Shown here: positions 2,954 to 63,832 of the stretch, one piece after another | Layout of the letters: every line of letters begins with the position of its first letter | Numbering within the stretch: position 1 is the first letter of the stretch | The notes under the pieces: generated by a model | What the model saw: only the letters and a program-made list of their open reading frames with translations | Databases searched by the model: none | What the model was told of the DNA's origin: nothing | Source of the DNA: an uncultured virus (IMG/VR IMGVR_UViG_3300011211_000002) | Taxonomy: Duplodnaviria > Heunggongvirae > Uroviricota > Caudoviricetes | DNA length: 64,000 nt | Direction: 5' to 3' (one strand) | Virus record (IMG/VR): IMGVR_UViG_3300011211_000002 | Made by a program: the position numbers and the translations under genes

Positions 2954-3008
2954 CTTTAAATTCCTCTTTTCTCTTTTTATAGATATTTTTATAAAATCAA
3001 AATATTAT

Positions 3009-3623
3009 TTAATTATCCAAAAGTATTTTAGTTAATTTCTTCACTACTTCTTCAGTTAAATCATCTAACTTAGTGAAACTCATGTCTTTATTCAATAGTT
3101 TAGACTTTCTTAAAACTTCACTTACTTCAATAATAGCTCCTGCAATTTGATTCAATGTAATTTCAGTAGAACTTCCTACATCCAAGACCTTTTTCTTTAA
3201 TTTGCTTGATACTTCATTCCATTGTTCATTTAAAATGATCGTAACTCCTTGCTTATCAATTGTTTCATCCCATTTATATTTACTCATATCGATTACAACT
3301 GACTCACCGTTTACAATCAAATCTTTTAATTTTTGGTATTCAGTAACTAATGAGTCAATGTAAGGTTTGTTAAATAACCTACATTCGATTTCTAGTGTAT
3401 TGTTTTTAATTAAGCGATCAATCTCAAATAAACTTATTAACTCTTTAGTAACTCGATCTGCTCCTACCTTATTATCAGAGTGAACTGTATGAATTTGGAG
3501 TTCTTCTCTTAATTTAAGTTCTGCATTATTAATGACAGACAAAGCCAATTCTTTAAATTCATTAATTTCCTTATCATACTTCGTTGTTAAATAAGCGTTA
3601 TAAGCGTTTTGTAAAATTGTCAT
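3009..3623 (-). CDS. Hypothetical protein bounded by boundary elements
   Basis: ORF track; elements at 2991 and 3662. Confidence 0.7.
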   Translation of the reverse strand: MTILQNAYNAYLTTKYDKEINEFKELALSVINNAELKLREELQIHTVHSDNKVGADRVTKELISLFEIDRLIKNNTLEIECRLFNKPYIDSLVTEYQKLKDLIVNGESVVIDMSKYKWDETIDKQGVTIILNEQWNEVSSKLKKKVLDVGSSTEITLNQIAGAIIEVSEVLRKSKLLNKDMSFTKLDDLTEEVVKKLTKILLDN

Positions 3624-3675
3624 AAATATATCCCCACTCTTTTTATATTTTTGTTATTTAAATAATATTGTCATA

Positions 3676-4161
3676 TTATTTGTCAAATAACTCTAATTCA
3701 AAGCTATTACCATCATCATCTGTCTTAATTCTAAACACATGAGTATAAAAACTTAATTCTTCATTACTTGATTCAAAATCTAATCCACTCACCAATTCTG
3801 ATTTATTAATAATCACCTTGAAATCATGAGAAATTTCACCATTACCGTTATAAAACTCTCCTTCTGCAATCAATTTAAACTTTTTAATGTTACTTGAATG
3901 ATGTAACGGTTTAAATACAATCTTTGTTGATTGGGAAGATATCTCTTTTTCAAAATCTGTTTTACTCTCACTAGGGTTTACTTCACCTAATGCCTTGATT
4001 AAATCGATATTAAAATCAACCACTTCAATCGCAAAATAAGACTCCCCTTTTGAATTATGTACTAATTTGCCTTTTACTGCCTTATCTAGCTTTGTTATAA
4101 ATTTCCCTTCAATATCAAAAACTTTTAAATCCAATACGTTTGCTAAAAATAATGATGTCAT
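3676..4161 (-). CDS. Hypothetical protein
   Basis: ORF track, GAGGAG RBS. Confidence 0.75.
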   Translation of the reverse strand: MTSLFLANVLDLKVFDIEGKFITKLDKAVKGKLVHNSKGESYFAIEVVDFNIDLIKALGEVNPSESKTDFEKEISSQSTKIVFKPLHHSSNIKKFKLIAEGEFYNGNGEISHDFKVIINKSELVSGLDFESSNEELSFYTHVFRIKTDDDGNSFELELFDK

Positions 4162-4192
4162 AAATTTATTCTCCTCTAGCGTAAGTCGCCAC

Positions 4193-4357
4193 CTATTTTA
4201 TTTTTGTACTATCGTATGACAAGTGAATCTTGATCCAGTAGTAGGATTCTTTTGCTTCTTTATGATCCATTATCATCAAATTATGTATTCCTGTTTTAAA
4301 TAGACAGTATAGGTGCTTCCAATCTTGCTTATCAAAACCAAGTATTCGTTTTATCAT
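4193..4357 (-). CDS. Small hypothetical protein
   Basis: Likely start MIKRILG adjacent to upstream stop. Confidence 0.55.
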   Translation of the reverse strand: MIKRILGFDKQDWKHLYCLFKTGIHNLMIMDHKEAKESYYWIKIHLSYDSTKIK

Positions 4358-4358
4358 A

Positions 4359-4727
4359 TTAATTAATAACTGCCCATAGCATATATCCGAAATATACAAT
4401 TGTTAAGAATCGTGAGAAGTAAGAATAAAATCCAATTTTCTCTTTCATCTTTCGTTTTTTACCTGTGATTCGTGAAAATAAAATTAATAACATAGCTACT
4501 AAAAATTCAACAATGTATAATCCTAACATTGTATATGTTGGGTATAGATATGTATCATGTTTTAAAGCAAAGAATAGATAAACAAGTTCACCTAACATAT
4601 ACGTTAACCCAAATGTCATATACAGACATCCTGCACCTACTAAATCTTTATCTTCAATTTCTCCTTTTTCTTTTCTTGCATTACTGGACGTAATACTTCT
4701 ACGGTAAATACAGCTAATGCCCACCAA
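4359..4727 (-). CDS. Hypothetical membrane protein (start uncertain, possible 5' frameshift)
   Basis: Three hydrophobic segments. Confidence 0.6.
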   Translation of the reverse strand: MVGISCIYRRSITSSNARKEKGEIEDKDLVGAGCLYMTFGLTYMLGELVYLFFALKHDTYLYPTYTMLGLYIVEFLVAMLLILFSRITGKKRKMKEKIGFYSYFSRFLTIVYFGYMLWAVIN

Positions 4728-4767
4728 ATAATCATTACGATTGTGAAAAATAACATCTATTCATCTC

Positions 4768-5745: not shown

Positions 5746-5785
5746 TCTCCTTTTTATATTTATTTTAATAATACTAATCTTTTAT

Positions 5786-6178: not shown

Positions 6179-6208
6179 CCCTTTTTATAATAGTGTGATT
6201 TTATTTAA

Positions 6209-7147: not shown

Positions 7148-7191
7148 TTAATTCCTCCTAATATTTCATTTAATATGCGTGTTTTATTTAA

Positions 7192-7563: not shown

Positions 7564-7832
7564 CCTCTTTTTATGTATTTTTAAATAAAAGATGAATTTT
7601 ATTTAATTATTTTAAGTTTTATAGTGATTTTGAAAAATCACTCCTTTTTCGTTCATTTCTTCATATTCTCCGATTTCAATATCTAAGTCATATTCTATAT
7701 AATTTTATTTCTACATACCCTGTTCTTTTCACATGTAGATGCTAATACAATGGAATTTGAATAAATAGTTCCATTCATAAATGAAATTTCTATATACTTC
7801 TAGGTTATTCATAGTCAATCACCTTTAGTTGT

Positions 7833-8582: not shown

Positions 8583-8633
8583 GAGATCACTCCTGCTTCA
8601 TATTCATTTAAATAATAGGTTTCTTTTATTTAA

Positions 8634-17224: not shown

Positions 17225-17229
17225 ATGTA

Positions 17230-19453: not shown

Positions 19454-19672
19454 ATTAATAAATCTCTCCATTTCAATTATGTATTTTATCATTTAACTAT
19501 CGAACCAATCACAATGTACCTAACCAAAATCTAAATAATATTAGGATTTTATTGAGAACATTTGATGAGTTTAGAACATGTGTTATTTTACATTTACCTA
19601 TAATTAGTTAAATTTTAATTATTTACATCGCTCATGGTTCGATAGTTTGTCTAGCCTATGTATTATAGCATT

Positions 19673-21324: not shown

Positions 21325-21764
21325 TCAGCTTCACCTTCATCGATATCTTCATCGTCTACAATTTCTACACCCTTTACTTTCTTTCTTCCTCTCCCCTTGG
21401 CAGATTCCCCTAGATCAACAGTAATATGTTCTGTAAGATGTTCTGAGACCTCTTTTGCTACCTTATCAATATGTACAAGTGCTTTGTTAATTGCTTCTTT
21501 CAAATCTTCAACTTGACTTAAATCTTGTTCGCTTAGATTCTCTAGAAATTCTTTTTCAATGAGTCGTTTACCTAAGGTATTTAGATTTCCAAAGTAGCTT
21601 GCATTTGTTTTGTTAAAAGCAAATTCACCACTACCTTCAGCATTTTTACCTCTAGACATTTTCTTCTCATACTTATTCATTAATGCAAAGTTTAATTTAT
21701 CAACTGCAATCCTGTGTTGAGAAGTAATTTGTACTTCATTTTTCTCTAATGGAGGTTCTAACAT
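21321..21764 (-). CDS. Hypothetical protein
   Basis: ORF track, overlapping stop/start with next gene. Confidence 0.7.
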   Translation of the reverse strand: MLEPPLEKNEVQITSQHRIAVDKLNFALMNKYEKKMSRGKNAEGSGEFAFNKTNASYFGNLNTLGKRLIEKEFLENLSEQDLSQVEDLKEAINKALVHIDKVAKEVSEHLTEHITVDLGESAKGRGRKKVKGVEIVDDEDIDEGEAD

Positions 21765-21776
21765 TATATCACCCTT

Positions 21777-21959
21777 TTATGTATTTTTATTAATATTATC
21801 ATTTCTAATAAAATGTAATTCTAGTAGCAGCTTTTTGATTGTCTTACTACACCAAACAGCATTTTCACGATTAAATTCTGTCTGTTCATTTAAGTAATCC
21901 AATTCGTTTAAAATTCTCTGTTCTTCTTCATAAGTCAATCTCCTGACCATTGTCCTCAC
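21777..21959 (-). CDS. Small hypothetical protein
   Basis: ORF track, GGGAG RBS. Confidence 0.6.
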   Translation of the reverse strand: MRTMVRRLTYEEEQRILNELDYLNEQTEFNRENAVWCSKTIKKLLLELHFIRNDNINKNT

Positions 21960-22025: not shown

Positions 22026-22057
22026 ATTTATTTAATTTTATAAAATGTGATTTTTAA

Positions 22058-22496: not shown

Positions 22497-22550
22497 TCTA
22501 TATCACTCTCCTTTTTTTTAATAAAACTGAAATATTATTTAGTTTTTAAC

Positions 22551-22889: not shown

Positions 22890-22919
22890 CCTTATAATTT
22901 TATAAAAGCAGAATATTAT

Positions 22920-23699: not shown

Positions 23700-23759
23700 A
23701 CAGTACCCTCCTAAGTTTTAAATAATACGTGTATTTTATTGAGTTTAATTTATGTATTT

Positions 23760-23867: not shown

Positions 23868-23900
23868 ATTCACCTCATTTCAATAAAATCGTACTATTAT

Positions 23901-24161: not shown

Positions 24162-24197
24162 CGAATTACATCTCTCCTTTTTCATAAAAGTGAATTA

Positions 24198-24491
24198 TTA
24201 TTTAATATTCCATTGTTTAAGATTGCTTGTATCAAAGTAGTTCCATTTAGTATTACTCAACATCAAATCTAACGTATATTTAGATTCTTCCTCTGTCATA
24301 TTTGGATTAACTTTCATCCATGTATCAATTAGTAAATTGTTATCTGTCTGGTGCAGCATAGCCATTTTACGAATCATGAGTAACTCTTTATCACTAAATT
24401 TCAACTTAATATTGGTCTTAGCTGTGTTTATCAACTTCATAGCAATATCTCTAATTCTATTTTCCTCAGAATAAGTGAATTTATAACTCAT
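24198..24491 (-). CDS. Hypothetical protein
   Basis: ORF track. Confidence 0.65.
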   Translation of the reverse strand: MSYKFTYSEENRIRDIAMKLINTAKTNIKLKFSDKELLMIRKMAMLHQTDNNLLIDTWMKVNPNMTEEESKYTLDLMLSNTKWNYFDTSNLKQWNIK

Positions 24492-25033: not shown

Positions 25034-25064
25034 ATTTCTTATAATATAATTCTTTTATCTAATT

Positions 25065-26133: not shown

Positions 26134-26153
26134 ATTTATATAAAATTCCACTA

Positions 26154-38964: not shown

Positions 38965-38998
38965 ACCTCCTGTTGAATTATTTTATAAAAGCGTTCTA

Positions 38999-39226: not shown

Positions 39227-39263
39227 TCAAATCTCTCCTTTTCATTTTATTAAAATCGTTATT

Positions 39264-39599: not shown

Positions 39600-39640
39600 T
39601 TATCATTCCTCCTCTAATTTTGATAATATCAACTTTTTAT

Positions 39641-40283: not shown

Positions 40284-40325
40284 TTCATCATTCTCCTTTC
40301 ATCATATCGAATTATTATTTAATTG

Positions 40326-40595: not shown

Positions 40596-40688
40596 CCATA
40601 CATCACTATTAGATTTAATTTGGAAAGTTTAACTATATACATATTTTATTGCCTCCATTTCAATAATGTACGAATATTATCCAATTGT

Positions 40689-41551: not shown

Positions 41552-41712
41552 ACCTCCTGTAAACATATGATTACAAATAGTGTATCAGAGAATTTTATAA
41601 AAGGGAAATATTATCTAATACTATAATAATCCTGTACAGGAAAATTTTAATAGATTCTTACTTTTTATTTGATATACTTACAATGTAACTATTTACTAGG
41701 AGGATTCAGGTA

Positions 41713-44107: not shown

Positions 44108-44167
44108 TAGAAATTTCATGTAAATTTTCATGGATGTTCTAGGTAATAAATAATATTCTCATTTTAC

Positions 44168-44905: not shown

Positions 44906-45091
44906 TTATAATAGGCTCGTTTTATTAAAATCAATCAATTTTGGTTTATACTTCAATTCGTCTTCATTTATAATCAATGCTGTATTTTCTGGGATGTAGT
45001 GTGATGATATTAAATTATCAGGCTTAAACTTTAGTTTGGTTACAATAGTCTCATATGTTGAGTTATTAACATACACATTTTTACCCTCCAC
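44906..45091 (-). CDS. Small hypothetical protein
   Basis: ORF track; reads through element at 44908. Confidence 0.55.
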   Translation of the reverse strand: MEGKNVYVNNSTYETIVTKLKFKPDNLISSHYIPENTALIINEDELKYKPKLIDFNKTSLL

Positions 45092-47205: not shown

Positions 47206-47379
47206 TGAATACCTCCTAAAAGAACATGTGTATAATCCAATGATATACCTGATACCTAATTAATTACAAGAAATAGATATTTTTGTATGATTACCTACCT
47301 AAGTATATTTAGTCATACAGAAGCTTTAGATTATTACTGAATAAGTATCATTACATTTTTTATAAAAATCCAATATTAT

Positions 47380-47556: not shown

Positions 47557-47637
47557 GTTTCCTTACCTTCTTTACTAAATAATTTGTTTTTCTTTTACTG
47601 AACAATATCTTTCAATTAAATAATAAGTCTCTTTCAT

Positions 47638-47961: not shown

Positions 47962-47995
47962 ATCACAACTCTCCTTTTATAAAAGTTTAGTATTA

Positions 47996-48133
47996 TTAAA
48001 TGTCAACGTACATGTTTTTATGGAAAACTTCTAACTCACCTTCTAATAGAAGATGTTCGATGTGTTCTTCTGCTTGTGTCAAACTAAAACCATGTGTCAT
48101 TAGATAATCAATTACTTCATCTCTCATATCCAT
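47996..48133 (-). CDS. 45-aa hypothetical protein (not in ORF track)
   Basis: MDMRDEVIDYLMTHGFS...YVDI; lies between elements at 47979 and 48165. Confidence 0.55.
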   Translation of the reverse strand: MDMRDEVIDYLMTHGFSLTQAEEHIEHLLLEGELEVFHKNMYVDI

Positions 48134-48178
48134 TTCAACACCACCTATATATGTATTTTATTTAATAAAAGCATGATA

Positions 48179-48403
48179 TTACTTAAACACTGACTTAATG
48201 TACTTATAAAAATTGATTACCAATTCAATTATTATTTTAATTAAAAATCCTATTAACAAAGCAAATATGAGTATCCCATAAGATAAGCCAATTTTTTGAA
48301 CCATACTTGAATCTGTATATAGATAAACACAAGCCAATATCATCATTCCGATAACAGCTATTCCAATTGTATCTTCATGAAATATTCTATTTAATACCTT
48401 CAA
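48179..48403 (-). CDS. Small two-TM membrane protein
   Basis: Two hydrophobic segments. Confidence 0.6.
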   Translation of the reverse strand: MKVLNRIFHEDTIGIAVIGMMILACVYLYTDSSMVQKIGLSYGILIFALLIGFLIKIIIELVINFYKYIKSVFK

Positions 48404-48439
48404 CTTATCACTTCCTTAATTTTAAATAATATATTGGTT

Positions 48440-48637
48440 TCATTTAATTACTGTTTTATATGCTTCAGCTAAATGTCGTTGCTGCCCTTCTGAATATGTA
48501 GGATTGAACTCGTTTGCAACTTGTTCTAATCTTCCTGCAATATCAATTAGAAAATTAATATCTTGATAATTGATCTCGTGCATTAGTCCGTTCTCTGATA
48601 ACCCTTTTATGTATTTAATTCTTTCTTGTTCATTCAT
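48440..48637 (-). CDS. Hypothetical protein
   Basis: ORF track, GGAGTG RBS. Confidence 0.6.
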   Translation of the reverse strand: MNEQERIKYIKGLSENGLMHEINYQDINFLIDIAGRLEQVANEFNPTYSEGQQRHLAEAYKTVIK

Positions 48638-49653: not shown

Positions 49654-49714
49654 TTATTATTATGTATTTTATAAAACAAATATATTATTTAATACTGACT
49701 TATCCCTCTTCCCA

Positions 49715-49921: not shown

Positions 49922-50004
49922 TTTAAAAACTCCTTTTTTATATTACATTAACAGCCTAAAGTGCTTTATGCAATACTTTTAAACATTTTTATAAAACGTG
50001 ACTA

Positions 50005-50280
50005 TTATATAAATTGACCTTTATATTCGTTATAGTCATCTAGATAATTTTTGCATATATTATAAATTGCATAGTGACTTTCTGGACAAAAGTCTAAATG
50101 TAAAAGATCACATCTTTGTTTTATTTCTTCAATTTTATCTAATTCATTACATAGTCTATCGAATTTATCTGACAACGTTGGTGAATTTAGCACCCTCCTG
50201 TACTCCTCTTTTATTGAGCAATATACTTCCATAAATCTATATTCATATATCCTAAGATTTTTTATATCCGTAAATTTCAA
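50005..50280 (-). CDS. Hypothetical protein
   Basis: ORF track; elements at 49991 and 50304. Confidence 0.65.
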   Translation of the reverse strand: MKFTDIKNLRIYEYRFMEVYCSIKEEYRRVLNSPTLSDKFDRLCNELDKIEEIKQRCDLLHLDFCPESHYAIYNICKNYLDDYNEYKGQFI

Positions 50281-50317
50281 AGAACCATCTCCTTTTCATT
50301 TTAATAATAGAATCATA

Positions 50318-50503
50318 TTATTTATTTTTTACATTAAACTTATGACATAGATTTTCTAATTCTCTAATTACATCTACACCTCTGTCGTAAAGTAATGAGC
50401 TTATCCTAGCGACTTCTCCTATTTGATAGCTACCCATAGCATGATACTCGACAGATTCATCAATTTTATTTTGATCTTCACTGAACAATATTTTCCGTTC
50501 CAT
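50318..50503 (-). CDS. Hypothetical protein
   Basis: ORF track. Confidence 0.6.
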   Translation of the reverse strand: MERKILFSEDQNKIDESVEYHAMGSYQIGEVARISSLLYDRGVDVIRELENLCHKFNVKNK

Positions 50504-50829: not shown

Positions 50830-51037
50830 TTATTCATTCTCCTCATCTTCAAGTTTAATTTCATTTATGAAATACATGTCAGATAAGTATTCATTCAACT
50901 CGTCTACATACTCTTTAGCATTTTCTTCGCTCTTAAAATATTTATTTAATGAAGACGACCCACTACCCATAAACCCTTTACTTCTTATTTCATAAATCAT
51001 ATTTCATTCCTCCTCAACTTTTCATAAAACTCCTCTT

Positions 51038-51226
51038 TTAACTAGCTTTAATTACTTCTTGATTTTCTACAGCATAACTACTTCCACGATCCTTTAACTG
51101 CCCTATCATAATGTCTTTACTTTTAAACATTTTTTGTCCTTCTGATCTAGCGTCTATTTTGCTATAAAATGTTTCATGTACCCATTCAATATCGTTTGCT
51201 TCTGTGAAAGTCCACTGATTATGCAT
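51038..51226 (-). CDS. Hypothetical protein
   Basis: ORF track, GGAGG RBS. Confidence 0.65.
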   Translation of the reverse strand: MHNQWTFTEANDIEWVHETFYSKIDARSEGQKMFKSKDIMIGQLKDRGSSYAVENQEVIKAS

Positions 51227-53093: not shown

Positions 53094-53141
53094 AATTCTC
53101 CTTTTTATAATACGAATCTTTTATATAACCATTAAATTTTG

Positions 53142-53921: not shown

Positions 53922-53961
53922 TAAATCTCCCCTTTTTTCATTTTATAATATAAGCACTTTA

Positions 53962-54228
53962 TTAAATTCTTTTAGGTTGTTCATTCCATAGCGTCAGCTC
54001 ATCGCTTGGTATTTCACTAAAATCATTTGGCAAATCTCCACCATATTCATCTACATAATTGTCCGTTACTTCATAGGTAGCAAATGAACCATCTAATTCT
54101 TTTTCATTGATCAAACTTAAAAACGCTAAATTACTTATGTTATGTCCTGCTGTATAGATTTTGTCATTAAAATACAACCATGCATAATCTCCTCGTTCCG
54201 CATACACTAATTTAATCTGCGTCATCAT
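53962..54228 (-). CDS. Hypothetical protein
   Basis: ORF track. Confidence 0.65.
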   Translation of the reverse strand: MMTQIKLVYAERGDYAWLYFNDKIYTAGHNISNLAFLSLINEKELDGSFATYEVTDNYVDEYGGDLPNDFSEIPSDELTLWNEQPKRI

Positions 54229-54257
54229 TATCTCTCCTTCTATATAAAATGAACATA

Positions 54258-54770
54258 TTAATCAATTTTTAACATTACGGTTACATTCTCGTTCACACCA
54301 AAATGATATGTATATTTATATCCTCGAATATCCCATTTATCTTTTGAATCTTTGTATGTTACTTTTACAAATGTATATTTATTTATCTTATCGAATTCAA
54401 CCATGACCATTTTAAAGAAAACCTCATTAACATCCTTACGATCTAATGCCCTACCTACATTTCTTGCTTTAGAATTAAATTTTGTAAAGTACTCAATGGC
54501 TCTATATGGATCAATATATTCTTCTCGATTTACATAATCAGCAATAATTACGTATGCATCATTGCTATAGCTGCTTTTACATAAGCGTCTATAAATATCT
54601 TTTGAAAGCAACTTTGCAACATATTCTGGGGTCGCTTTTTTCTTCAATCGTCTATATTTATATTTCTCGAATTTATCAATCGCCCATGCTAACGGATGCA
54701 TGATTTTGTAATATGTATTGAGCGATTTTGATTTAAAATTTTTTATCTTCTTGTATGTTGACGGCTTCAA
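54258..54770 (-). CDS. Hypothetical basic protein
   Basis: ORF track. Confidence 0.7.
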   Translation of the reverse strand: MKPSTYKKIKNFKSKSLNTYYKIMHPLAWAIDKFEKYKYRRLKKKATPEYVAKLLSKDIYRRLCKSSYSNDAYVIIADYVNREEYIDPYRAIEYFTKFNSKARNVGRALDRKDVNEVFFKMVMVEFDKINKYTFVKVTYKDSKDKWDIRGYKYTYHFGVNENVTVMLKID

Positions 54771-54819
54771 TTAATCACTCCTTTTCATTTTATGTATTTG
54801 TTTGAATAATAAATCACTT

Positions 54820-55200
54820 TTATTTAAATATAGATGTTAAACCAATGATATAGTCTGTCTTTGTAATAAATACTTGGTATTCTTCTGTGTGAGTATAATC
54901 GTCGTCAGAACTCATATCCAATTCATTATTATCGCCATCTAATTTAACTTTTCTTTTTAATTCCCAACCATTTTCATTTTCTGTACAATCAAACTGTCTA
55001 ATTGCACAATGAATTGATTCTAGTCGTTTTAATACAGTTTCTTTTAATTCGTTTTTATTCCTAATGTGAATCTCTTCACCCAAATAAACTGTAATGTCGC
55101 TTATTAGTCTATAATAATATGAATCATTGCCGTTCTTGTCTTTATATATCTCTCTTATATCTGCATAGTACGCTCCTATATATGCTTTTTCTCCATACAT
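54820..55200 (-). CDS. Hypothetical protein
   Basis: ORF track; elements at 54806 and 55220. Confidence 0.7.
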   Translation of the reverse strand: MYGEKAYIGAYYADIREIYKDKNGNDSYYYRLISDITVYLGEEIHIRNKNELKETVLKRLESIHCAIRQFDCTENENGWELKRKVKLDGDNNELDMSSDDDYTHTEEYQVFITKTDYIIGLTSIFK

Positions 55201-55249
55201 ATTTTTCGTCTCCTCTTCTATAATATTCAGTTTTTATTTAATCCTATAT

Positions 55250-55726: not shown

Positions 55727-56078
55727 CTACATCGTCTCCTACCTTTCGATAATATCTATCTTTTATGTAATTTTTAAAATAGAATCCAATTGTTTTGAAC
55801 TGTATTAAACTCTTTCTTGACACTTTATATATCAATTTAACTTAAGCTCTCTATTAATTAATAGCGCCTTAATTCATTAGTAAAGCCAAATGCAATTATT
55901 ATATAAGTTCAATTACCAGTATCGTTAAAGCGAATCACCATTAAAGGTTGCATAAATCTTTGTATATAAAGAATAAGATATTAAGATACATAATATACAG
56001 TATTTACGATTTATAATTTCACCTTTTCAGGTAAAATTCCAATCGTGAAAATTTTCCTCTTCTATCTTCCTTCACTAT

Positions 56079-57023: not shown

Positions 57024-57076
57024 ATTATCACCTCATCTTCTTTGCAATTTTAAATTTAATAATAGATGTGTTTTAT

Positions 57077-57289: not shown

Positions 57290-57350
57290 CCTTTCAATAA
57301 TAGTTCTATTTTATCTACTGATAGCAACACCTTTAACAAACTACAATCAT

Positions 57351-58032: not shown

Positions 58033-58062
58033 CCTCGTTTTACCTTTAATAATAACTTCATT

Positions 58063-58590
58063 TTATTTACGCAAACCATCTATTACTCTTTTGTGGTACT
58101 CAATATCCTCTTCCTCTACATCAAATACAACTTTCTGATCAACATATTCGTCAAATAATGAAGAATCAAACTTTTCACTCCATCCTATTAAAAACACCTT
58201 TTTACATCCCTTATCAAAGATATTTGTTATTGACTTCGTATTTACGCCCTTTTGATTAATCATCGAGTCTATAGGATAAATGATTGTGTAATCTAGTTTG
58301 TTAGGCGAGTTCTTCCATGTCTTACTATCAATAGAGTCGAAATAAATATCATTAGAACCAAATTCATAAGGAGTACCAGTTTTAAAGTTATTACTGGCAT
58401 TTAAAAATGTATCTAAATTTTTAAGTGTATTTGCTCTGAAAAGAATATTTTTATGTTCAGCCTCATTTCCTAAAATAGAAAGTACCAACTTATGCTTTTC
58501 ATACATATGTGTACCCGTTAACAATAAACACCTTCTATCAGAATTAATAAAATCTATTATCTGTTCTTTTGCTTTTTTTCTAGTATTCAT
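58063..58590 (-). CDS. Hypothetical protein (degenerate P-loop-like start)
   Basis: CLLLTGTHMYEKH. Confidence 0.65.
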   Translation of the reverse strand: MNTRKKAKEQIIDFINSDRRCLLLTGTHMYEKHKLVLSILGNEAEHKNILFRANTLKNLDTFLNASNNFKTGTPYEFGSNDIYFDSIDSKTWKNSPNKLDYTIIYPIDSMINQKGVNTKSITNIFDKGCKKVFLIGWSEKFDSSLFDEYVDQKVVFDVEEEDIEYHKRVIDGLRK

Positions 58591-58926: not shown

Positions 58927-58983
58927 AATTCACCTTCTTCTATTACCCAGATTAGTAAAATATTTTTTTTATTTTCACTTAAA

Positions 58984-59160: not shown

Positions 59161-59226
59161 TATTATTCCTCTTTTCATTTTAATTTTAACTGCTATACAT
59201 AAATAATAGACTTCCATTATCTAATC

Positions 59227-60496: not shown

Positions 60497-60592
60497 AAGT
60501 ATATTCCTCCTAAGTTTTATAAAATGCTGATTTTATGTAAGAGTAGTATCACTCTTTGTAATTCTCATAAAGTTCACAATTCAATTTCCGTT

Positions 60593-60838: not shown

Positions 60839-60987
60839 TTAAACTACGCCTCTTTTCACTTATAATCTCTTCATAAAATTATACTTTTATAGATCAATTT
60901 TACTTGATGCTCAAATGGTATACAACTTCCAATTATAATACTAATCACAATTATAATCAGTTGCTGCCTCCATGTATACTTAACCTG

Positions 60988-61238: not shown

Positions 61239-61336
61239 TAGATTTCATTTTTCATTCAACCAGTTTAATTCTTGCTACATAAATCGATTTCTAAAAATGA
61301 ACACAACAATACATCCTAATTTATTTTTTCATGTAT

Positions 61337-61663
61337 TTAGTTAGCTAACAACTTCATGTATCCCTTTTGCAGCTCTTTCATTTGATCTTTATAATAATCA
61401 ACTTCTTCTTTTGTATAACTTAGAGTAAATAATGTAGGAACTTCAATTTCCATATCTGAATTATTAACTGAGATCTCATAACGAGCGAAATCATATTTAT
61501 CCACTAATTCAAAACCATATTCTTTATTTATATTGTTAATACATTCTTCTCTTACCTCCTTACTCATTTGTAGTAGTGCGCCGTACACTTCATACTTATT
61601 ATAACTAACCCCAATATTACAATCCGTAGCATTATTAACAACTAATTTTAATTGATTCATCAT
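61337..61663 (-). CDS. Hypothetical protein
   Basis: ORF track. Confidence 0.65.
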   Translation of the reverse strand: MMNQLKLVVNNATDCNIGVSYNKYEVYGALLQMSKEVREECINNINKEYGFELVDKYDFARYEISVNNSDMEIEVPTLFTLSYTKEEVDYYKDQMKELQKGYMKLLAN

Positions 61664-62505
61664 TTTTATATCCCCTTTATTATTTTAAGTATTTATTCAT
61701 ATAAATTATATCACAACAACTTAACTTGTTTCTTTGTAAGATTAGATCATTTTAATATCAATATTCAAATTTTCAATAAATAATTACATTATTATGTATT
61801 TTATATTTTAATCAACTTAAGAATAATCGAGTTAAGATACCTATAACCTTACTCTAAGTAGATAACTGGAACTTTTACTAAAATATATCTTACTTGTAAG
61901 CTATAAGTAAATTATACATAAGATACAAGTAAGATACAATAGTTTTTTAAATTTAATTTTGTATAATTTGGAAGTATTAATTATTCTTGACTATTCCCGT
62001 CTTTCTTATCAATTGATTTTTGAAAAGGAGTTTTGTTGTTTTGAGTTTTAGATGAATAGTTCTAACTAATAAATTGATCGAACATATTATTGATTATGAG
62101 GTAAGATTTATTAGTTAGAACTTTAACGGCTTTTTCAATTGTAATTATTTAAATACCTATTATATTTAGCACTACTTTAACATTTGACTGTTACAATTAG
62201 CTCTAATTGTTCTTACTCATCCGTTTGTAATTAGAATGTCTCAGTGTTATTATTTGTTTCCTGTTACTATATGGGATCATGCTCACCACCCCTCGTCTCA
62301 AATTCATCCCAAAACTCGTAGCAATATTTTCTACACGCTGTTACTATATAGCGATTTGGATACATATTGAATTAAAGTAAGCATTTTTTTGTGAAGTAAC
62401 TTTGTAATTTCTCTATTAATAGGAAGAAACTCAATTCACTTATTAAAAGTTCTTATAAACATTGATATAGGAGCGTCTATGTAGGTAACTAAATTTTATT
62501 TAAAT

Positions 62506-62579
62506 AAATACATAAATTTAGTTGACTAAATCTTCATCGGATGTTATGATAAATTCAAGTTAAACAAATAAATACATAA
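62506..62579 (+). promoter_or_regulatory. Rightward sigma-A promoter flanked by two AAATACATAA motifs
   Basis: TTGACT(62522)-17-TATGAT with TG; motifs at 62506 and 62570. Confidence 0.8.
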
Positions 62580-62602
62580 ATATACTTCAGGAGGAACAAA
62601 TA

Positions 62603-63061
62603 ATGAAACTACAAAATAAAATCAGTGCTCTATCTAATATGAAAGCTAAAGAGTTACAAACAGAGGCAAACAAAGAGGGTTTAACATGGTATAACCGTGA
62701 GGAAAAGCGAAAAATGCATAAAGATGAAATTATTACTTTGTTAACTGAACACTACACAAACTTAATTGAACAGGATCAAAACACAGAATTAGAAATTGAA
62801 AACTCAACGACTGTTCAATTAGTTACACACTTTAAAGAACTAGCTTCCAATGCGATAAATGCAGCTAAAGAAGACTATAACCAAGCAGCACAGCAATTAA
62901 GTAATGTAAAAGAGTTACTATCAGATGCATTAGTGAAGTTGCAAGATAAACTAACAGACAAGAAAAACAAATTACTGGCTCGTAAATGGAACTTAACTAT
63001 TAATAACATTAAATGTATTGTGACTACAGCAGAACGTAAAATAAACGCTGTAGTAGCTTAA
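62603..63061 (+). CDS. Protein with Rho-N/SAP-like N-terminal motif
   Basis: LSNMKAKELQTEANKEGL...KMHKDEIITLL; GGAGG RBS. Confidence 0.65.
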   Translation: MKLQNKISALSNMKAKELQTEANKEGLTWYNREEKRKMHKDEIITLLTEHYTNLIEQDQNTELEIENSTTVQLVTHFKELASNAINAAKEDYNQAAQQLSNVKELLSDALVKLQDKLTDKKNKLLARKWNLTINNIKCIVTTAERKINAVVA

Positions 63062-63099
63062 ATAAAAATACTATTTTATCTAAATTGGAGGAAAAGAAA

Positions 63100-63786
63100 A
63101 TGAAAAATTTTAGAAAACAATTAGGGTATGTATTAGAAAATAAAAATATATGTGTTAATGGTTATACTGAAAATAAAATTTTATTCCAAAACAATGATGG
63201 TAAAATTGATAAACAAAGAAAAGCAACTTTATACACTAATAAGAAAGGTATTTACTTTACTTATGAAAGTAAAAGATATTATGTATTAATTAATAAAGAG
63301 ACGAAATCTAAGTCAATCGACCCTAACTCTATCGAAAGTACAATACTATCTGAAATGATTGGAGACGTTGGAACTTTGATTGCTGGGTTACAAACTACGA
63401 CTAGCAAAAAAACGTTAAAAGAAATAAATAAAGAAAAGTACAAGCCACATTCTAATTTTAGTAAATGGTTAGATAGTTTAGTTAAAACAGAAATAAAAAA
63501 GAAAGTAGAAGAAGAACATAGTAAAGCTATTTCTTTATTACAAATCAATTCAGATTTAATCGGAACAGTTAGAAATAAAGTAAAACAAACTTTCTTAAAG
63601 GTTTTCGGTGCTGAAAATTTAAAATATAAGACAATCAACGTTGACAAGGTTTTCGGTGAAAGTACGGTTACAAAATATTCATTTTTAGCAAAAGAAAACG
63701 GCTTTAATTCTAATGATGTTGATCGACTTGTACAGTCTATTATTTATAGCGTGTTAAAAGAAAACAACCGTTTACAAATTAATTAA
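63100..63786 (+). CDS. Hypothetical protein bounded by boundary elements
   Basis: Start MKNFRK behind GGAGG; elements at 63062 and 63787. Confidence 0.7.
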   Translation: MKNFRKQLGYVLENKNICVNGYTENKILFQNNDGKIDKQRKATLYTNKKGIYFTYESKRYYVLINKETKSKSIDPNSIESTILSEMIGDVGTLIAGLQTTTSKKTLKEINKEKYKPHSNFSKWLDSLVKTEIKKKVEEEHSKAISLLQINSDLIGTVRNKVKQTFLKVFGAENLKYKTINVDKVFGESTVTKYSFLAKENGFNSNDVDRLVQSIIYSVLKENNRLQIN

Positions 63787-63832
63787 ATAAAAACATTATT
63801 TTATAAAATATATAAAATGGAGTGAATGAGGA

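What the first reader, a model, noticed from the sequence alone, without database searches (positions are those of the whole stretch)
2991..63804. The boundary site is asymmetric, occurs in both orientations, and every spacer is unique
Seen among the 40 exact copies: 13 ATAAAA..TATTAT, 20 ATAATA..TTTTAT (the reverse complement of the first), 5 ATAAAA..TTTTAT and 2 ATAATA..TATTAT. So 33 of 40 pair one ATAAAA arm with one ATAATA arm. All 40 spacers differ (e.g. tcaaaa, gtgtga, gcagaa, gacggc, tgcgac, cgtgac). Inference: an RNA hairpin would favour perfectly paired arms, so the excess of mismatched arms points to an oriented DNA site with two distinct half-sites. Unique spacers imply either a recombinase tolerant of non-homologous overlaps (established for Tn916/Tn1549 integrases with about 6-bp coupling sequences) or spacers that act as addresses preventing deletion between neighbours.
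Basis: partly seen in the sequence, partly recalled or inferred. Interest (0 to 1): 0.72.

Follow-up and report, generated by a model that had tools for sequence, protein, structure and literature searches.

The report
Address-tagged gene-junction sites in a phage
A large Bacillus-type phage separates its small genes with a short two-armed DNA site whose middle six letters differ at every junction yet stay the same in related phages that carry different genes there, so the sites look like fixed, numbered slots for swapping genes.

Summary
ATAAWA-N6-TWTTAT occurs 43 times (0.69 expected). 35 of 43 copies pair one ATAAAA arm with one ATAATA arm (Fisher p 9e-5). Both orientations occur relative to the genes. 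All 43 spacers differ, but chance alone gives that (P 0.74).

The window is a temperate SPbeta/Tsamsa-like siphophage whose closest kin include a Lysinibacillus prophage. The site fills gene junctions, from stop codon to ribosome-binding site, and cannot fold stably.

The new result is comparative. 39 of 43 window spacers recur, in the same order, in three relatives (controls 3-4). Yet at 72 of 122 shared sites neither flank is homologous. Spacers differ at about 2% where flanks differ by 16%.

The dyad runs through the whole group: SPbeta has 34 copies, phi3T 30, Kirov 21, Tsamsa 20. My searches found no description of it.

Best reading (0.4): protein-bound DNA junctions whose spacer is a slot-specific crossover address. 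The conserved XerC-like YopP homologue is the candidate enzyme. The main rival is a regulatory operator with recombination as a by-product, as with PeSLs. The binding protein and any recombination are inferred, not shown.

The parts
2538..2555 (.). degenerate dyad (1 arm mismatch), spacer gcaaac
   Evidence: spacer shared with G003
2991..3008 (.). dyad ATAAAA-tcaaaa-TATTAT, mixed arms
   Evidence: spacer in G001, G002, G003
3662..3679 (.). dyad ATAATA-ttgtca-TATTAT, like arms
   Evidence: spacer in G001-G003, W state differs
5768..5785 (.). dyad ATAATA-ctaatc-TTTTAT, mixed arms
   Evidence: spacer in G001-G003; flanks unrelated
6187..6204 (.). dyad ATAATA-gtgtga-TTTTAT, mixed arms
   Evidence: spacer in G001-G003; flanks unrelated
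7170..7187 (.). degenerate dyad, spacer tgcgtg
   Evidence: G002
7585..7602 (.). dyad ATAAAA-gatgaa-TTTTAT, like arms
   Evidence: same spacer with three different arm states in window, G001, G002
8612..8629 (.). dyad ATAATA-ggtttc-TTTTAT, mixed arms
   Evidence: G001, G002; also metagenome locus L241
9031..9048 (.). dyad ATAATA-tttaat-TTTTAT, mixed arms, just after the DnaE stop
   Evidence: G001-G003
19535..19552 (.). dyad ATAATA-ttagga-TTTTAT, mixed arms
   Evidence: G002 has ttaaga at the flank-anchored place
21763..21780 (.). degenerate dyad, spacer tcaccc
   Evidence: no partner
22040..22057 (.). degenerate dyad, spacer tgtgat
   Evidence: G001-G003
22521..22538 (.). dyad ATAAAA-ctgaaa-TATTAT, mixed arms
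   Evidence: G001-G003
22902..22919 (.). dyad ATAAAA-gcagaa-TATTAT, mixed arms
   Evidence: G002, G003 exact
23722..23739 (.). dyad ATAATA-cgtgta-TTTTAT, mixed arms
   Evidence: G001-G003
23883..23900 (.). dyad ATAAAA-tcgtac-TATTAT, mixed arms
   Evidence: G003 with arm mismatch
24184..24201 (.). dyad ATAAAA-gtgaat-TATTAT, mixed arms
   Evidence: G001-G003; flanks unrelated
25041..25058 (.). dyad ATAATA-taattc-TTTTAT, mixed arms
   Evidence: no partner
26140..26157 (.). dyad ATAAAA-ttccac-TATTAT, followed by AATACATAA and a sigma-A-like promoter
   Evidence: G002, G003
27920..27937 (.). dyad ATAATA-tctata-TATTAT, like arms
   Evidence: G002, G003
33355..33372 (.). degenerate dyad, spacer tattcc
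   Evidence: G002
33993..34010 (.). dyad ATAATA-cttacc-TTTTAT, mixed arms
   Evidence: G001, G003
34438..34455 (.). dyad ATAATA-tttagt-TTTTAT, mixed arms
   Evidence: G001, G003
35317..35334 (.). dyad ATAATA-tatctc-TTTTAT; both arm letters flipped in G003
36310..36327 (.). dyad ATAATA-catctg-TTTTAT, mixed arms
   Evidence: G002, G003
37086..37103 (.). dyad ATAATA-gacggc-TTTTAT, mixed arms
   Evidence: G003
37930..37947 (.). dyad ATAAAA-tgcgac-TATTAT, mixed arms
   Evidence: G003
38393..38410 (.). dyad ATAAAA-tgaaaa-TATTAT; relatives have tgaaat in this slot
38985..39002 (.). dyad ATAAAA-gcgttc-TATTAT, mixed arms
   Evidence: G002, G003
39250..39267 (.). degenerate dyad, spacer tcgtta
   Evidence: G002
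39623..39640 (.). dyad ATAATA-tcaact-TTTTAT, mixed arms
   Evidence: G001
40301..40318 (.). degenerate dyad, spacer tcgaat
   Evidence: G002
40663..40680 (.). degenerate dyad, spacer tacgaa
   Evidence: G002
41597..41614 (.). dyad ATAAAA-gggaaa-TATTAT, mixed arms
   Evidence: G001-G003; same spacer also in Kirov, Tsamsa, PBC2, which may be chance
44150..44167 (.). degenerate dyad, spacer ttctca
   Evidence: G001-G003
44908..44925 (.). dyad ATAATA-ggctcg-TTTTAT, mixed arms
   Evidence: G001, G002 exact
47362..47379 (.). dyad ATAAAA-atccaa-TATTAT, mixed arms
   Evidence: G001
47620..47637 (.). degenerate dyad, spacer agtctc
47979..47996 (.). dyad ATAAAA-gtttag-TATTAT, mixed arms
   Evidence: G003 with arm mismatch
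48165..48182 (.). degenerate dyad, spacer gcatga
48426..48443 (.). degenerate dyad, spacer tattgg
49671..49688 (.). dyad ATAAAA-caaata-TATTAT, mixed arms
   Evidence: G002
49991..50008 (.). dyad ATAAAA-cgtgac-TATTAT, mixed arms
   Evidence: G001-G003; flanks unrelated
50304..50321 (.). dyad ATAATA-gaatca-TATTAT, like arms
51024..51041 (.). degenerate dyad, spacer ctcctc
53107..53124 (.). dyad ATAATA-cgaatc-TTTTAT, mixed arms
   Evidence: no partner
53945..53962 (.). degenerate dyad, spacer taagca
54244..54261 (.). degenerate dyad, spacer tgaaca
54806..54823 (.). dyad ATAATA-aatcac-TTTTAT, mixed arms
   Evidence: G001, G003
55220..55237 (.). dyad ATAATA-ttcagt-TTTTAT, mixed arms
   Evidence: G001, G002
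55749..55766 (.). dyad ATAATA-tctatc-TTTTAT; homology with relatives stops at the site
57059..57076 (.). dyad ATAATA-gatgtg-TTTTAT, mixed arms
   Evidence: G001, G003
57297..57314 (.). dyad ATAATA-gttcta-TTTTAT, mixed arms
58049..58066 (.). dyad ATAATA-acttca-TTTTAT, mixed arms
   Evidence: G001, G003
58955..58972 (.). degenerate dyad, spacer tatttt
59203..59220 (.). degenerate dyad, spacer gacttc
60519..60536 (.). dyad ATAAAA-tgctga-TTTTAT, like arms
60873..60890 (.). dyad ATAAAA-ttatac-TTTTAT, like arms
   Evidence: G001
63062..63079 (.). dyad ATAAAA-atacta-TTTTAT, like arms, between + strand genes
63787..63804 (.). dyad ATAAAA-acatta-TTTTAT, like arms, between + strand genes
32226..33272 (-). 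YopP-like XerC-family tyrosine recombinase homologue (348 aa); candidate enzyme, by inference only
   Evidence: Pfam Phage_integrase 1.8e-10; alignment keeps Arg, Lys, His, His, Tyr, with Lys in place of the second Arg; homologue in all dyad-bearing genomes tested except phi3Ts, where tblastn found none at E <= 1e-3
30815..32155 (-). YopQ-like protein (446 aa)
   Evidence: phrog_5732; 29% identical to SPbeta YopQ region, E 2e-24; SPbeta YopQ carries a ParB_N_Srx domain according to PMC8612738
29829..30818 (-). MrpR/YopR/SroF-like integrase-fold master repressor homologue (329 aa)
   Evidence: PDB 8bjv/8a0a, E 2e-16 over the full length; Pfam MrpR_N_CB + MrpR_C_cat

Best explanation
The dyad is a roughly 26-bp intercistronic DNA element: TTAA, then ATAAWA-N6-TWTTAT, then nAAA. 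It is characteristic of the SPbeta / Tsamsa / Kirov group of large temperate siphophages.

I propose that a phage protein binds the two A/T arms on double-stranded DNA. The six central bases would not be read as a common sequence. They would serve as a slot-specific address, the crossover region that must be identical in the two partner sites.

Two related genomes in one cell, such as an infecting phage and a resident prophage, could then exchange the single gene or small gene group lying between address i and address i+1. Order and reading context would be kept, because unlike addresses in one genome do not match each other. This works like recombinase-mediated cassette exchange with heterospecific lox sites, or like dif/Xer sites with a 6-bp central region.

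The candidate enzyme is the conserved XerC-family YopP homologue, whose function is unknown even in SPbeta. In the Lysinibacillus clade the site has also become polar, with one ATAAAA half and one ATAATAtt half.

Shown here:
- the motif is real and phage-specific;
- its position at gene junctions, its polarity and its inability to fold;
- conservation of slot-specific spacers, in the same order, independently of both flanks;
- purifying selection on those spacers;
- presence of the dyad across the phage group.

Inferred, not shown: protein binding, recombination at the site, the role of spacer identity, and YopP as the enzyme.
For: 1. The motif is real and belongs to the phage. The window holds 43 copies against 0.69 expected. 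In the Lysinibacillus genome G003, 43 of the 69 matches lie in the 160 kb fetched around its prophage. Across the whole 4.8 Mb the backwards control gives 44.

2. It sits at junctions. It abuts or overlaps the upstream stop and lies 8-45 nt before the next start. In Kirov and SPbeta it lies 0-5 nt from the ribosome-binding site. 31 of 59 inter-dyad segments hold exactly one gene. The replication module and the yopPQR region have none.

3. Spacers mark slots, not genes.
- Exact-spacer partners of the 43 window sites number 23 in G001, 19 in G002 and 22 in G003, in the same order.
- Allowing one arm mismatch in the relatives, 39 of 43 recur. Controls give 4 (spacers read backwards) and 3.2 (shuffled).
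- At 122 shared-address genome pairs, tblastx of 400-nt flanks finds no homology on either side in 72, on one side in 40, and on both in 10 (examples).
- Conservation falls to background 4 nt outside the 18-mer.

4. Spacers are under purifying selection. Sites were paired by a homologous flank, not by the spacer, giving 67 comparisons with a mean flank identity of 84%.
- 31 had the identical spacer and 4 had one mismatch.
- 7 more had the same spacer beside a mutated arm.
- Spacer differences are 4 of 210 positions. The two W arm positions differ at 15 of 70 (my count from the rows).
- In the cassette array I count 1 mismatch in 180 positions. In six site pairs outside it, where the flanks are conserved, I count 8 of 36.

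5. The pattern holds at greater distance. Kirov and Tsamsa belong to different subfamilies. They share 6 identical 18-mers, against 0.3 by chance, in the same order and between unrelated genes.

6. The architecture fits a tyrosine-recombinase core site: inverted arms and a 6-bp centre, 26 bp in all. A YopP-like integrase-family gene is found in every dyad-bearing genome tested except phi3Ts, where tblastn found none. It retains Arg, Lys, His, His and Tyr.

7. Mosaic block ends fall at dyads. 27 of 160 HSP ends lie within 20 nt of a dyad centre, against 4.4 for random positions. Between SPbeta and phi3Ts, 9 of 28 junctions with a dyad hold a block end, against 21 of 168 without (p 0.019).
Against: 1. 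No recombination event at a dyad has been observed, and nothing shows what binds the arms.

2. In the window clade, junctions with a dyad carry homology breaks no more often than junctions without: 29 of 57 against 29 of 56.

3. Lysinibacillus phage LC76P1 has a YopP-like gene (41% identity) but no dyad family at all.

4. The YopP family has Lys where canonical tyrosine recombinases have the second catalytic Arg, in 8 of 9 aligned sequences. Activity is therefore uncertain.

5. In three flank-anchored cases a homologous gene adjoins a different address in another genome. Slots are therefore not inviolable.

6. Laboratory phi3Ts-SPbeta hybrids crossed over within long stretches shared by both parents at 99.5% identity or more, not detectably at dyads.

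7. Selection for exchange compatibility is a second-order force. Its strength is arguable.

8. The relatives' sites are orthologous, so counts across genomes are not independent.
Confidence: 0.4

Rival explanations
1. The dyad is a regulatory operator or roadblock. A phage DNA-binding protein binds it at nearly every cistron junction to silence or time the early genes. Candidates are one of the four Xre-type HTH proteins in the window, or an integrase-fold repressor. This would resemble the stoperators of cluster A mycobacteriophages (recalled). Recombination at the sites is then a by-product of short shared sequence, as with PeSLs of T4-like phages. Spacers would be conserved because the centre tunes affinity.
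For: - The 5-6-5 dyad geometry is typical of dimeric HTH operators (general knowledge).
- The phage is temperate and encodes an MrpR/SroF-like repressor and four HTH_3 proteins.
- The phi3T homologue SroF binds a 26-bp A-tract-rich box as a monomer and senses DNA shape (section read). That matches the 26-bp footprint and the polarity seen here.
- LC76P1 lacks both the repressor homologue and the dyads.
- Dyad junctions are not preferred break points in the window clade.
- PeSLs show that regulatory cassettes can mediate modular shuffling (abstracts read).
Against: - In SPbeta, MrpR ChAP-seq gave ten peaks at promoters that carry the SPBRE (passages read). SPbeta has 34 dyads. In the 17 kb I read, five intergenic dyads lie at genes not on the peak list, and two peak genes have no dyad.
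- The SPBRE, ATACA-N7-TGTAT, resembles the window's other motif, AATACATAA, not the dyad.
- Affinity tuning does not predict letter-for-letter conservation of all six bases while the W arm positions vary at about 21%.
- It also does not predict spacer drift where the flanks are conserved.
- Brevibacillus phage Sundance has the repressor homologue but no dyads.
Confidence: 0.3
2. The dyad is an mRNA-level element at cistron junctions, for example a protein-bound processing site, a stabiliser, or a translational operator just upstream of the Shine-Dalgarno sequence.
For: It lies inside polycistronic units directly upstream of ribosome-binding sites. In Kirov-type phages the arms are perfectly complementary.
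Against: - The free hairpin is unstable: mean -0.62 kcal/mol, and -0.30 for the mixed-arm sites, no better than shuffles.
- The W positions co-vary against pairing.
- The polar site lies in either orientation relative to the mRNA, 14 against 21.
- Nothing in this model explains slot-specific conserved loops.
- No Rfam search was run. No RNA data were available.
Confidence: 0.08
3. The dyad is a promoter element for host or phage RNA polymerase, with one arm acting as a -10 box.
For: The arms are TATAAT-like and A/T-rich. The window encodes a sigma-factor-like protein.
Against: - No conserved -35 is seen.
- In Kirov and SPbeta the ribosome-binding site starts 0-5 nt after the arm, which leaves no leader.
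- The site occurs in both orientations.
- Recognisable sigma-A-like promoters in the window follow the other motif, AATACATAA.
- YonO RNA polymerase of SPbeta starts the late operon at a single site (passages read).
Confidence: 0.04
4. The sites belong to a recombinase that tolerates unlike overlaps, of the Tn916/Tn1549 type, or they are ends of small mobile elements.
For: The arms-plus-6-bp-centre layout fits. Integrase-family genes are present.
Against: - Spacers are fixed by slot across genomes instead of being carried along from earlier neighbours.
- The sites are single boundaries, not paired ends.
- No copies share a spacer within a genome.
Confidence: 0.03

Closest known systems
PeSLs (promoter-early stem-loops) of T4-like phages (PMC2839356, PMC4122927; abstracts read)
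   Same: Both are short conserved intergenic cassettes between small, variable, mostly unknown genes. Both lie at the points where otherwise unrelated sequences are joined in related phages.
   Different: - PeSLs are a sigma-70 promoter plus a terminator hairpin. All copies are alike, so any two can recombine and give mini-circles.
- The dyad has no promoter and no stable hairpin.
- Each copy carries its own six-base centre, which is conserved by position.
Tyrosine-recombinase core sites with an identity-tested centre: dif/XerCD, loxP and heterospecific lox variants used for cassette exchange (recalled)
   Same: Both have inverted arms around a 6-bp centre, about 26-28 bp in all. Two unlike half-sites give polarity. 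The logic that only sites with the same centre recombine would explain unique-within-genome, conserved-between-genome spacers.
   Different: - No natural system with some 40-60 different centres per genome is known to me.
- No recombination has been shown here.
- The candidate enzyme has Lys for the second Arg.
SPBRE / SroF box, operator of the integrase-fold repressor MrpR (YopR, SroF) of SPbeta-like phages (PMC10516654 passages; bioRxiv 2025.11.27.690993, section 5)
   Same: It belongs to the same phage group. It is A/T-rich, repeated and intergenic. The phi3T box is 26 bp and is bound by an intrinsically asymmetric monomer. A homologous repressor is encoded in the window.
   Different: - The SPBRE is ATACA-N7-TGTAT with a conserved centre. 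I found six strict copies, and the paper reports ten peaks.
- The dyads, 34 in SPbeta, are a separate and more numerous family. By the paper's gene list they do not coincide with the peaks.
Integron attC sites (recalled)
   Same: Both are imperfect inverted repeats bounding single-gene cassettes, recombined by a tyrosine recombinase, with mismatched bases setting polarity.
   Different: - An attC site travels with its cassette and is recombined as a folded single strand.
- Here the variable centre stays with the slot while the cassettes change.
- The strand cannot fold stably.
Stoperators of cluster A mycobacteriophages (recalled)
   Same: Both are dozens of short asymmetric sites in the short intergenic gaps of a temperate phage.
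   Different: - Stoperators share one sequence and one orientation relative to transcription.
- The dyads have unique centres and occur in both orientations.

Membership tests
Tyrosine-recombinase core site (dif/lox type) | Two inverted recombinase-binding arms around a 6-8 bp overlap region | tested here: met
   The arms are TTwwATAAWA and its inverted partner around 6 bp, with a 26-bp conserved footprint.
Tyrosine-recombinase core site (dif/lox type) | Overlap region identical in the two partner sites | tested here: met
   Spacers are identical at orthologous slots in different genomes. 31 of 35 flank-anchored same-slot comparisons are exact, and 39 of 43 window spacers recur. This is compatible with the feature but is not proof of use.
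Tyrosine-recombinase core site (dif/lox type) | A catalytically competent tyrosine recombinase that binds the arms | tested here: inconclusive
   The YopP-like protein has the Phage_integrase domain. It keeps Arg, Lys, His, His and Tyr, but has Lys for the second Arg in 8 of 9 aligned homologues. Binding cannot be tested here. LC76P1 has the gene but no dyads.
Tyrosine-recombinase core site (dif/lox type) | Recombination products with crossover inside the overlap | not testable with these tools
   Homology blocks end at sites, but the crossover point inside an identical 18-mer cannot be resolved. Arm letters follow the adjacent homologous flank in 9 of 12 informative comparisons by my count. 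These are not independent and the result is not significant.
MrpR/SroF operator (SPBRE) | Sequence of the SPBRE type | tested here: not met
   The SPBRE read in SPbeta is ATACA-N7-TGTAT. The dyad is TAAAA-N6-TTTTA.
MrpR/SroF operator (SPBRE) | Coincides with repressor binding peaks | tested here: not met
   There are ten peaks at named promoters against 34 dyads in SPbeta. The comparison uses the paper's gene list only. Peak coordinates and supplements were not seen.
MrpR/SroF operator (SPBRE) | Cognate integrase-fold repressor encoded by the phage | tested here: met
   ORF 29829-30818 matches YopR/MrpR with E 2e-16 and carries the MrpR_N_CB and MrpR_C_cat domains.
PeSL-type regulatory cassette | Strong sigma-70-like promoter plus terminator stem-loop | tested here: not met
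   No -35/-10 pair is conserved at the dyad. Mean MFE is -0.62 kcal/mol.
PeSL-type regulatory cassette | Lies between variable genes at mosaic junctions | tested here: met
   However, dyad-free junctions break as often in the window clade.
Integron attC | Site belongs to, and moves with, its cassette | tested here: not met
   The spacer stays with the slot while both neighbouring genes change, in 72 of 122 pairs.
Intrinsic terminator or structured RNA hairpin | Stable stem, pairing kept by compensatory change | tested here: not met
   The MFE is no better than shuffles. 35 of 43 sites have a mismatch at the co-varying pair.
Stoperator-type repressor site | One common asymmetric sequence in one orientation relative to transcription | tested here: not met
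   Both orientations occur, 14 and 21, among - strand genes. The centres are unique.

The most novel reading that the evidence does not exclude
SPbeta-group phages carry a natural counterpart of recombinase-mediated cassette exchange, or of Golden-Gate assembly. There would be 20-60 heterospecific recombination sites per genome. The arms would be common to all, and the 6-bp crossover regions would be slot addresses shared across a phage gene pool. A XerC-like enzyme (YopP) could then swap single accessory genes between co-resident phages at exact gene boundaries without scrambling gene order. Spacer conservation would be maintained because only cassettes with compatible addresses spread.
Probability: 0.25. 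Interest if true: 0.95.

Novelty: new variant of a known kind. Interest (0 to 1): 0.8.

Why it matters
How phage genomes stay ordered while their genes are shuffled is an old question. It goes back to the modular theory and its proposed linker sequences. Here a concrete, countable candidate linker is visible. It is a 26-bp junction element shared by a whole group of large temperate phages, including the model phage SPbeta. Its centre behaves as a position label under purifying selection, independently of the genes beside it.

The slots hold accessory genes, among them an anti-Pycsar Apyc1 homologue and an Abi_C protein. The sites may therefore govern the turnover of defence and counter-defence genes.

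SPbeta in Bacillus subtilis 168 is genetically tractable, so the idea can be tested directly. If it holds, it also gives YopP a function and offers a set of natural orthogonal recombination sites. If the operator reading is right instead, the finding is a genome-wide silencing system distinct from the known MrpR/SPBRE circuit.

Tried and rejected
- **No near match.** Megablast of 11 kb of the window against the phage collection found nothing. No whole genome is held for the window.
- **Genome-collection scan.** A scan with one 18-mer address gave 120 stretches. By motif count, 79 of the 80 loci with full flanks look like chance hits; only L062 held three dyads.
- **Metagenome scan.** A scan with DnaE gave 4 short loci holding only 2 dyads.
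- **Sequencing runs.** No RNA holder was listed. Two DNA holders had small shares, 0.09 and 0.06, kept as contigs only. I did not lay them.
- **Laboratory hybrids.** The phi3Ts-SPbeta hybrids Hyb2 and Hyb3 have junctions inside long stretches that both parents share at 99.5% identity or more. They say nothing about the dyads.
- **Phylogenetic profiling.** I ran tblastn with 285 ORFs over 11 genomes. Few proteins are detectable across the group. None is present in all dyad-bearing genomes and absent from both dyad-free ones.
- **Three-frame stop idea.** I checked by eye whether the element supplies stop codons in all three frames. The consensus gives TAA in two frames only, so I dropped the idea.
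- **Orientation runs.** A hand-computed runs test for clustering of site orientation along the window gave z about -1.4, not significant.
- **Deep address conservation.** Spacers shared between the window clade and the Bacillus phages (gggaaa, ttcagt, tttaat) are no more than chance allows: 1-3 observed against 0.6-0.8 expected per pair.
- **YonO promoters.** Rejected, because YonO starts the SPbeta late operon at one site.
- **Earlier findings of this scan.** Three look-ups returned nothing.
- **Literature.** I found no description of the dyad in:
  - the Tsamsa paper, where the words palindrom, promoter, intergenic and motif occur 0 times;
  - the SPbeta review, passages read;
  - the MrpR paper, passages read;
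  - the searches.

  Lazarevic 1999, the SPbeta genome paper, is not in the library and was not seen. It may describe the dyad.

Full report
**1. The observation**

The pattern ATAAWA-N6-TWTTAT occurs 43 times in the window, from 2991 to 63804. Dinucleotide shuffles give 0.69 on average and at most 3. On the + strand there are 14 ATAAAA..TATTAT, 21 ATAATA..TTTTAT, 5 ATAAAA..TTTTAT and 3 ATAATA..TATTAT. So 35 of 43 sites join one ATAAAA arm to one ATAATA arm. The two variable positions are associated with Fisher p 9.2e-5.

All 43 spacers differ. However, random 6-mers of the same composition are all different in 74% of trials, and near-identical pairs are as frequent as chance predicts (5 against 5.4). 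The first two claims of the title are therefore significant. The third is true but, inside one genome, uninformative.

**2. What the window is**

The DNA is 27-33% G+C and has no tRNA gene. About 101 of 114 called genes lie on the - strand. PHROG and Pfam matches give the following:
- a DnaE-type polymerase, a RecJ-like nuclease, a primase, a DnaB-like helicase and a DNA ligase;
- HNH endonucleases and a sigma-factor-like protein;
- an Apyc1 anti-Pycsar homologue and an Abi_C protein;
- four Xre-type HTH proteins and many ORFans.

The polymerase is 58% identical to those of 160-170 kb siphophages of Bacillus and Lysinibacillus: Kirov, PBC2, the Thrax phages and LC76P1.

ORF 29829-30818 is a full-length homologue of the SPbeta master repressor YopR/MrpR. 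It matches PDB 8bjv and 8a0a at E 2e-16 and carries the Pfam domains MrpR_N_CB and MrpR_C_cat. It follows a YopQ-like gene and a YopP-like integrase-family gene, as in the SPbeta yopP-yopQ-yopR operon.

Close relatives are two IMG/VR proviruses, G001 and G002, and a prophage in a Lysinibacillus genome, G003. In G003, 43 of the 69 matches lie in the 160 kb fetched around the prophage. The backwards control gives 44 over the whole 4.8 Mb. The motif therefore belongs to the phage, not to the host.

**3. Anatomy of the site**

Read on the coding strand, the site directly follows or overlaps the stop codon of the upstream gene. A few A residues, a GGAGG-type ribosome-binding site and the next start come 8-45 nt later. 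The conserved footprint is 26 bp: TTAA, the 18-mer, then nAAA.

Counting 17 intergenic copies with one arm mismatch, about 60 of 113 gene junctions carry a dyad. 31 of 59 inter-dyad segments hold exactly one gene. The long dyad-free stretches are the replication module (9031-19535) and the yopPQR region.

The site is polar beyond its arms. When all mixed-arm sites are turned the same way, spacer position 11 is A-rich next to the TATTAT arm, while its mirror position is not T-rich (p 4e-4; logo). This polar site lies in either orientation relative to transcription: 14 and 21 among sites flanked by - strand genes.

As a free strand it cannot fold. Mean MFE of the 26-nt element is -0.62 kcal/mol as RNA and -0.82 with DNA parameters, against -0.37 +/- 0.74 for shuffles. 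The mixed-arm sites average -0.30. A directional RNA signal, a terminator and a -10 promoter all fit poorly. In Kirov and SPbeta the ribosome-binding site begins 0-5 nt after the arm, which leaves no room for a leader.

**4. The comparative result**

I fetched the whole contigs of G001 and G002 and 160 kb around the G003 prophage. Their dyads carry the same spacers as the window, in the same order along the genome.
- Exact-spacer partners exist for 23 (G001), 19 (G002) and 22 (G003) of the 43 window sites; about 0.4 is expected per genome.
- Allowing one arm mismatch in the relatives, 39 of 43 window spacers recur. Controls give 4 when the spacers are read backwards and 3.2 (maximum 10) when they are shuffled.

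Yet the genes beside the sites are often different. I compared 400-nt flanks by tblastx at 122 genome pairs that share an address. 72 have no detectable homology on either side, 20 only on the left, 20 only on the right, and 10 on both. Printed examples show identical 18-mers between unrelated stop regions and unrelated N-termini. Only 26.6 and 28.2 kb of the 64-kb window align at all to G001 and G002. The spacer therefore belongs neither to the upstream nor to the downstream gene. It belongs to the position.

**5. Selection on the spacer**

To avoid circularity I paired sites through a homologous flank, not through the spacer. That gave 67 comparisons with a mean flank identity of 84%.

| Outcome at the expected place | Comparisons |
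|---|---|
| Strict dyad, identical spacer | 31 |
| Strict dyad, one spacer mismatch | 4 |
| Strict dyad, 2-5 spacer mismatches | 6 |
| No strict dyad | 26 |

- By my reading of the printed 24-mers, the 26 without a strict dyad break down as follows: 7 show the same spacer beside a mutated arm, 2 a spacer one letter off, 2-3 a dyad with another spacer, and the rest nothing recognisable.
- Of the 6 with 2-5 mismatches, three match the neighbouring address exactly. There a homologous gene adjoins a different slot, so a cassette and one site have been lost or moved.
- Among the 35 same-slot comparisons (32 distinct site pairs), spacer letters differ at 4 of 210 positions. The two W arm positions differ at 15 of 70.

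The spacer is thus far more conserved than adjacent coding DNA, while the W positions change at about the neutral rate. The two W letters nevertheless stay unlike-paired, which implies selection on the combination.

A small contrast points the same way. Inside the cassette array I count 1 spacer mismatch in 180 positions. In six site pairs outside it, where the flanks are conserved, I count 8 of 36 (rows). The second sample is small.

**6. The dyad across the phage group**

Counts of the dyad against the same pattern read backwards:

| Genome | Dyads | Control |
|---|---|---|
| Kirov | 21 | 0 |
| Tsamsa | 20 | 1 |
| PBC2 | 22 | 0 |
| pW2 | 19 | 0 |
| FADO | 30 | 0 |
| SPbeta (TAAAA-N6-TTTTA) | 34 | 2 |
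| phi3Ts | 30 | 2 |
| Geobacillus E3 | 30 | 7 |
| Staphylococcus SPbeta-like | 17 | 8 |
| LC76P1 | 1 | 1 |
| Brevibacillus Sundance | 0 | 4 |

In the five Bacillus phages from Kirov to FADO almost all copies have like arms, ATAAAA..TTTTAT. A de novo count of all 5-mer inverted dyads puts this family first in SPbeta and Kirov and finds no family in LC76P1.

Kirov and Tsamsa are classified in different subfamilies. They share six identical 18-mers in the same order (0.3 expected). Four of these have no flank homology, and the alignments show that identity stops at the site. The mixed-arm form is special to the Lysinibacillus clade. SPbeta varies at the outermost arm letters instead.

**7. What binds it**

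The obvious candidate, the MrpR/SroF repressor, is unlikely by homology. [quoted passage not shown] The SPBRE as I read it in the SPbeta record is ATACA-N7-TGTAT. That is a different and much rarer motif than the 34 dyads.

In the 17 kb around yopR, five intergenic dyads lie at genes not on the peak list, and two peak genes have no dyad. I saw neither peak coordinates nor supplements.

The phi3T homologue binds a 26-bp A-tract-rich box as a monomer and contacts 24 of its 26 base pairs (bioRxiv 2025.11.27.690993, section 5 read). That shows how a polar 26-bp site could be read by such a fold. It also implies that the protein reads the centre, whereas here the centre differs at every site.

The window has a second, oriented motif, AATACATAA, with 29 copies on the gene strand and 2 on the other. 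It often lies just upstream of sigma-A-like -35/-10 pairs or of ribosome-binding sites. In sequence and position it resembles the SPBRE and is the better candidate operator.

The YopP homologue is an integrase-family protein. In SPbeta, YopP is reported only as having a XerC-superfamily domain, and integration is carried out by SprA (PMC8612738, passages read). An alignment of nine homologues keeps the first Arg, the Lys, both His and the Tyr. It has Lys for the second Arg in all but Geobacillus E3.
- YopP-like and YopR-like genes are both detectable in eight of the nine dyad-bearing genomes tested.
- In phi3Ts, tblastn found no YopP-like match at E <= 1e-3.
- LC76P1 has only the YopP-like gene, and Sundance only the YopR-like gene. 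Two negatives are too few to lean on.

**8. Recombination evidence, for and against**

For:
- Ends of blastn alignments between the window and its three relatives fall within 20 nt of a dyad centre in 27 of 160 cases, against 4.4 for random positions.
- Between SPbeta and phi3Ts, 9 of 28 junctions with a dyad hold a block end, against 21 of 168 without (odds ratio 3.3, p 0.019).

Against:
- In the window clade, gene junctions with a dyad hold a break no more often than junctions without: 29 of 57 against 29 of 56.
- Laboratory phi3Ts-SPbeta hybrids crossed over inside long stretches shared by both parents at 99.5% identity or more. They say nothing about dyads.

In 9 of 12 informative flank-anchored comparisons, the arm letter next to the homologous flank is the conserved one (my count). 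This is what a crossover between the arms predicts. The cases are not independent and the result is not significant.

**9. Interpretation**

Any explanation must account for five facts together:
- generic arms conserved over a whole phage group;
- centres that differ between slots but are frozen within a slot;
- independence from both neighbouring genes;
- either orientation relative to transcription;
- drift of the centre where no gene turnover occurs.

A site whose centre must match the same site in another genome does this. It works like a tyrosine-recombinase overlap region, and the 10-6-10 layout and the unassigned XerC-like gene fit. A spacer that mutates can no longer take part in exchange. 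Cassettes seen today are those that arrived through compatible sites.

I hold this reading at 0.4, and the version with a dedicated recombinase at about 0.25. The main rival, at 0.3, is a regulatory operator or roadblock whose short shared sequence also seeds homologous exchange, as PeSLs do in T4-like phages. It explains position and number well, but explains poorly the letter-perfect spacers beside freely changing arm letters. RNA-level, promoter and Tn916-like readings are weak for the reasons above.

**10. Novelty**

My literature searches and the papers I read on Tsamsa, SPbeta, MrpR, SroF and YonO do not mention this dyad. The 1999 SPbeta genome paper could not be read.

PeSLs are the nearest described thing. 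The slot-specific conserved centre has no described counterpart that I know of. I file the finding as a new variant of a known kind, namely boundary motifs linked to modular shuffling. A categorically new reading, natural address-coded cassette exchange, remains open. It can be tested directly in Bacillus subtilis with SPbeta.

Noticed in passing
window, e.g. 7571-7579, 26124-26132, 54790-54798, 61024-61032 (- strand); 62507-62515 and 62571-62579 (+ strand): A second, oriented intergenic motif, AATACATAA, has 29 copies on the - strand and 2 on the + strand. The two + strand copies lie where the genes switch strand. About ten copies sit 5-8 nt upstream of sigma-A-like TTGAnn-N17-TAnAnT promoters; others lie just before ribosome-binding sites. 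In sequence and position it resembles the SPbeta SPBRE (ATACA-N7-TGTAT), so it may be the operator of the MrpR-like repressor. The relatives have 69-81 copies per genome.
   Followed up: partly
window 29829-33272 (- strand): The yopP-yopQ-yopR gene order of SPbeta is kept in this Lysinibacillus-type phage and in Geobacillus E3. PMC8612738 describes the operon as found only in B. subtilis SPbeta-like arbitrium phages. In Kirov, Tsamsa and FADO the P-like and R-like genes lie far apart, and no Q-like gene was detected.
   Followed up: partly
window 44168-44887 (-), 48746-49603 (+), 45287-47205 (-): Accessory genes sit in the slots: an Apyc1 anti-Pycsar homologue (PF23023, E 7e-15), an Abi_C-domain protein on the opposite strand, and a DUF6414 protein next to an AAA ATPase. 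Defence and counter-defence genes thus lie among the exchangeable cassettes.
   Followed up: no
window 60519-63804: Four of the five ATAAAA..TTTTAT sites (like arms, the form used by Kirov and SPbeta) cluster at the right end of the window, around the point near 62 kb where gene direction and GC skew reverse. This may be a different module with the ancestral site form.
   Followed up: no
window 9078-12263 against G002 (L013-L020): The DnaE gene is itself mosaic. Window 9020-12006 is 70% identical to G002, while 12040-19647 is 92% identical. Exchange therefore also occurs inside or beside core genes that have no dyad.
   Followed up: no
window 19673-21324 (- strand): Two adjacent HNH endonuclease ORFs (phrog_3377, E 1e-50 and 5e-51), with an overlapping ORF between them, lie directly after the replication module. 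This looks like tandem free-standing homing-type endonucleases.
   Followed up: no
all 43 strict sites: Spacers are 38% G+C in a 29% G+C window. They are richer in G and C than the surrounding A/T-rich intergenic DNA, as expected if they carry information.
   Followed up: partly
SPbeta record AF020713, 76171-76215 (locus L004 2892-2936): In the SPbeta aimR promoter a dyad (TTAAAA-ttggaa-TTTTAA) lies immediately upstream of the SPBRE and the -35 box. The same order of dyad, operator-like motif and promoter is seen at window 26140. The composite may be an ancestral regulatory module.
   Followed up: partly
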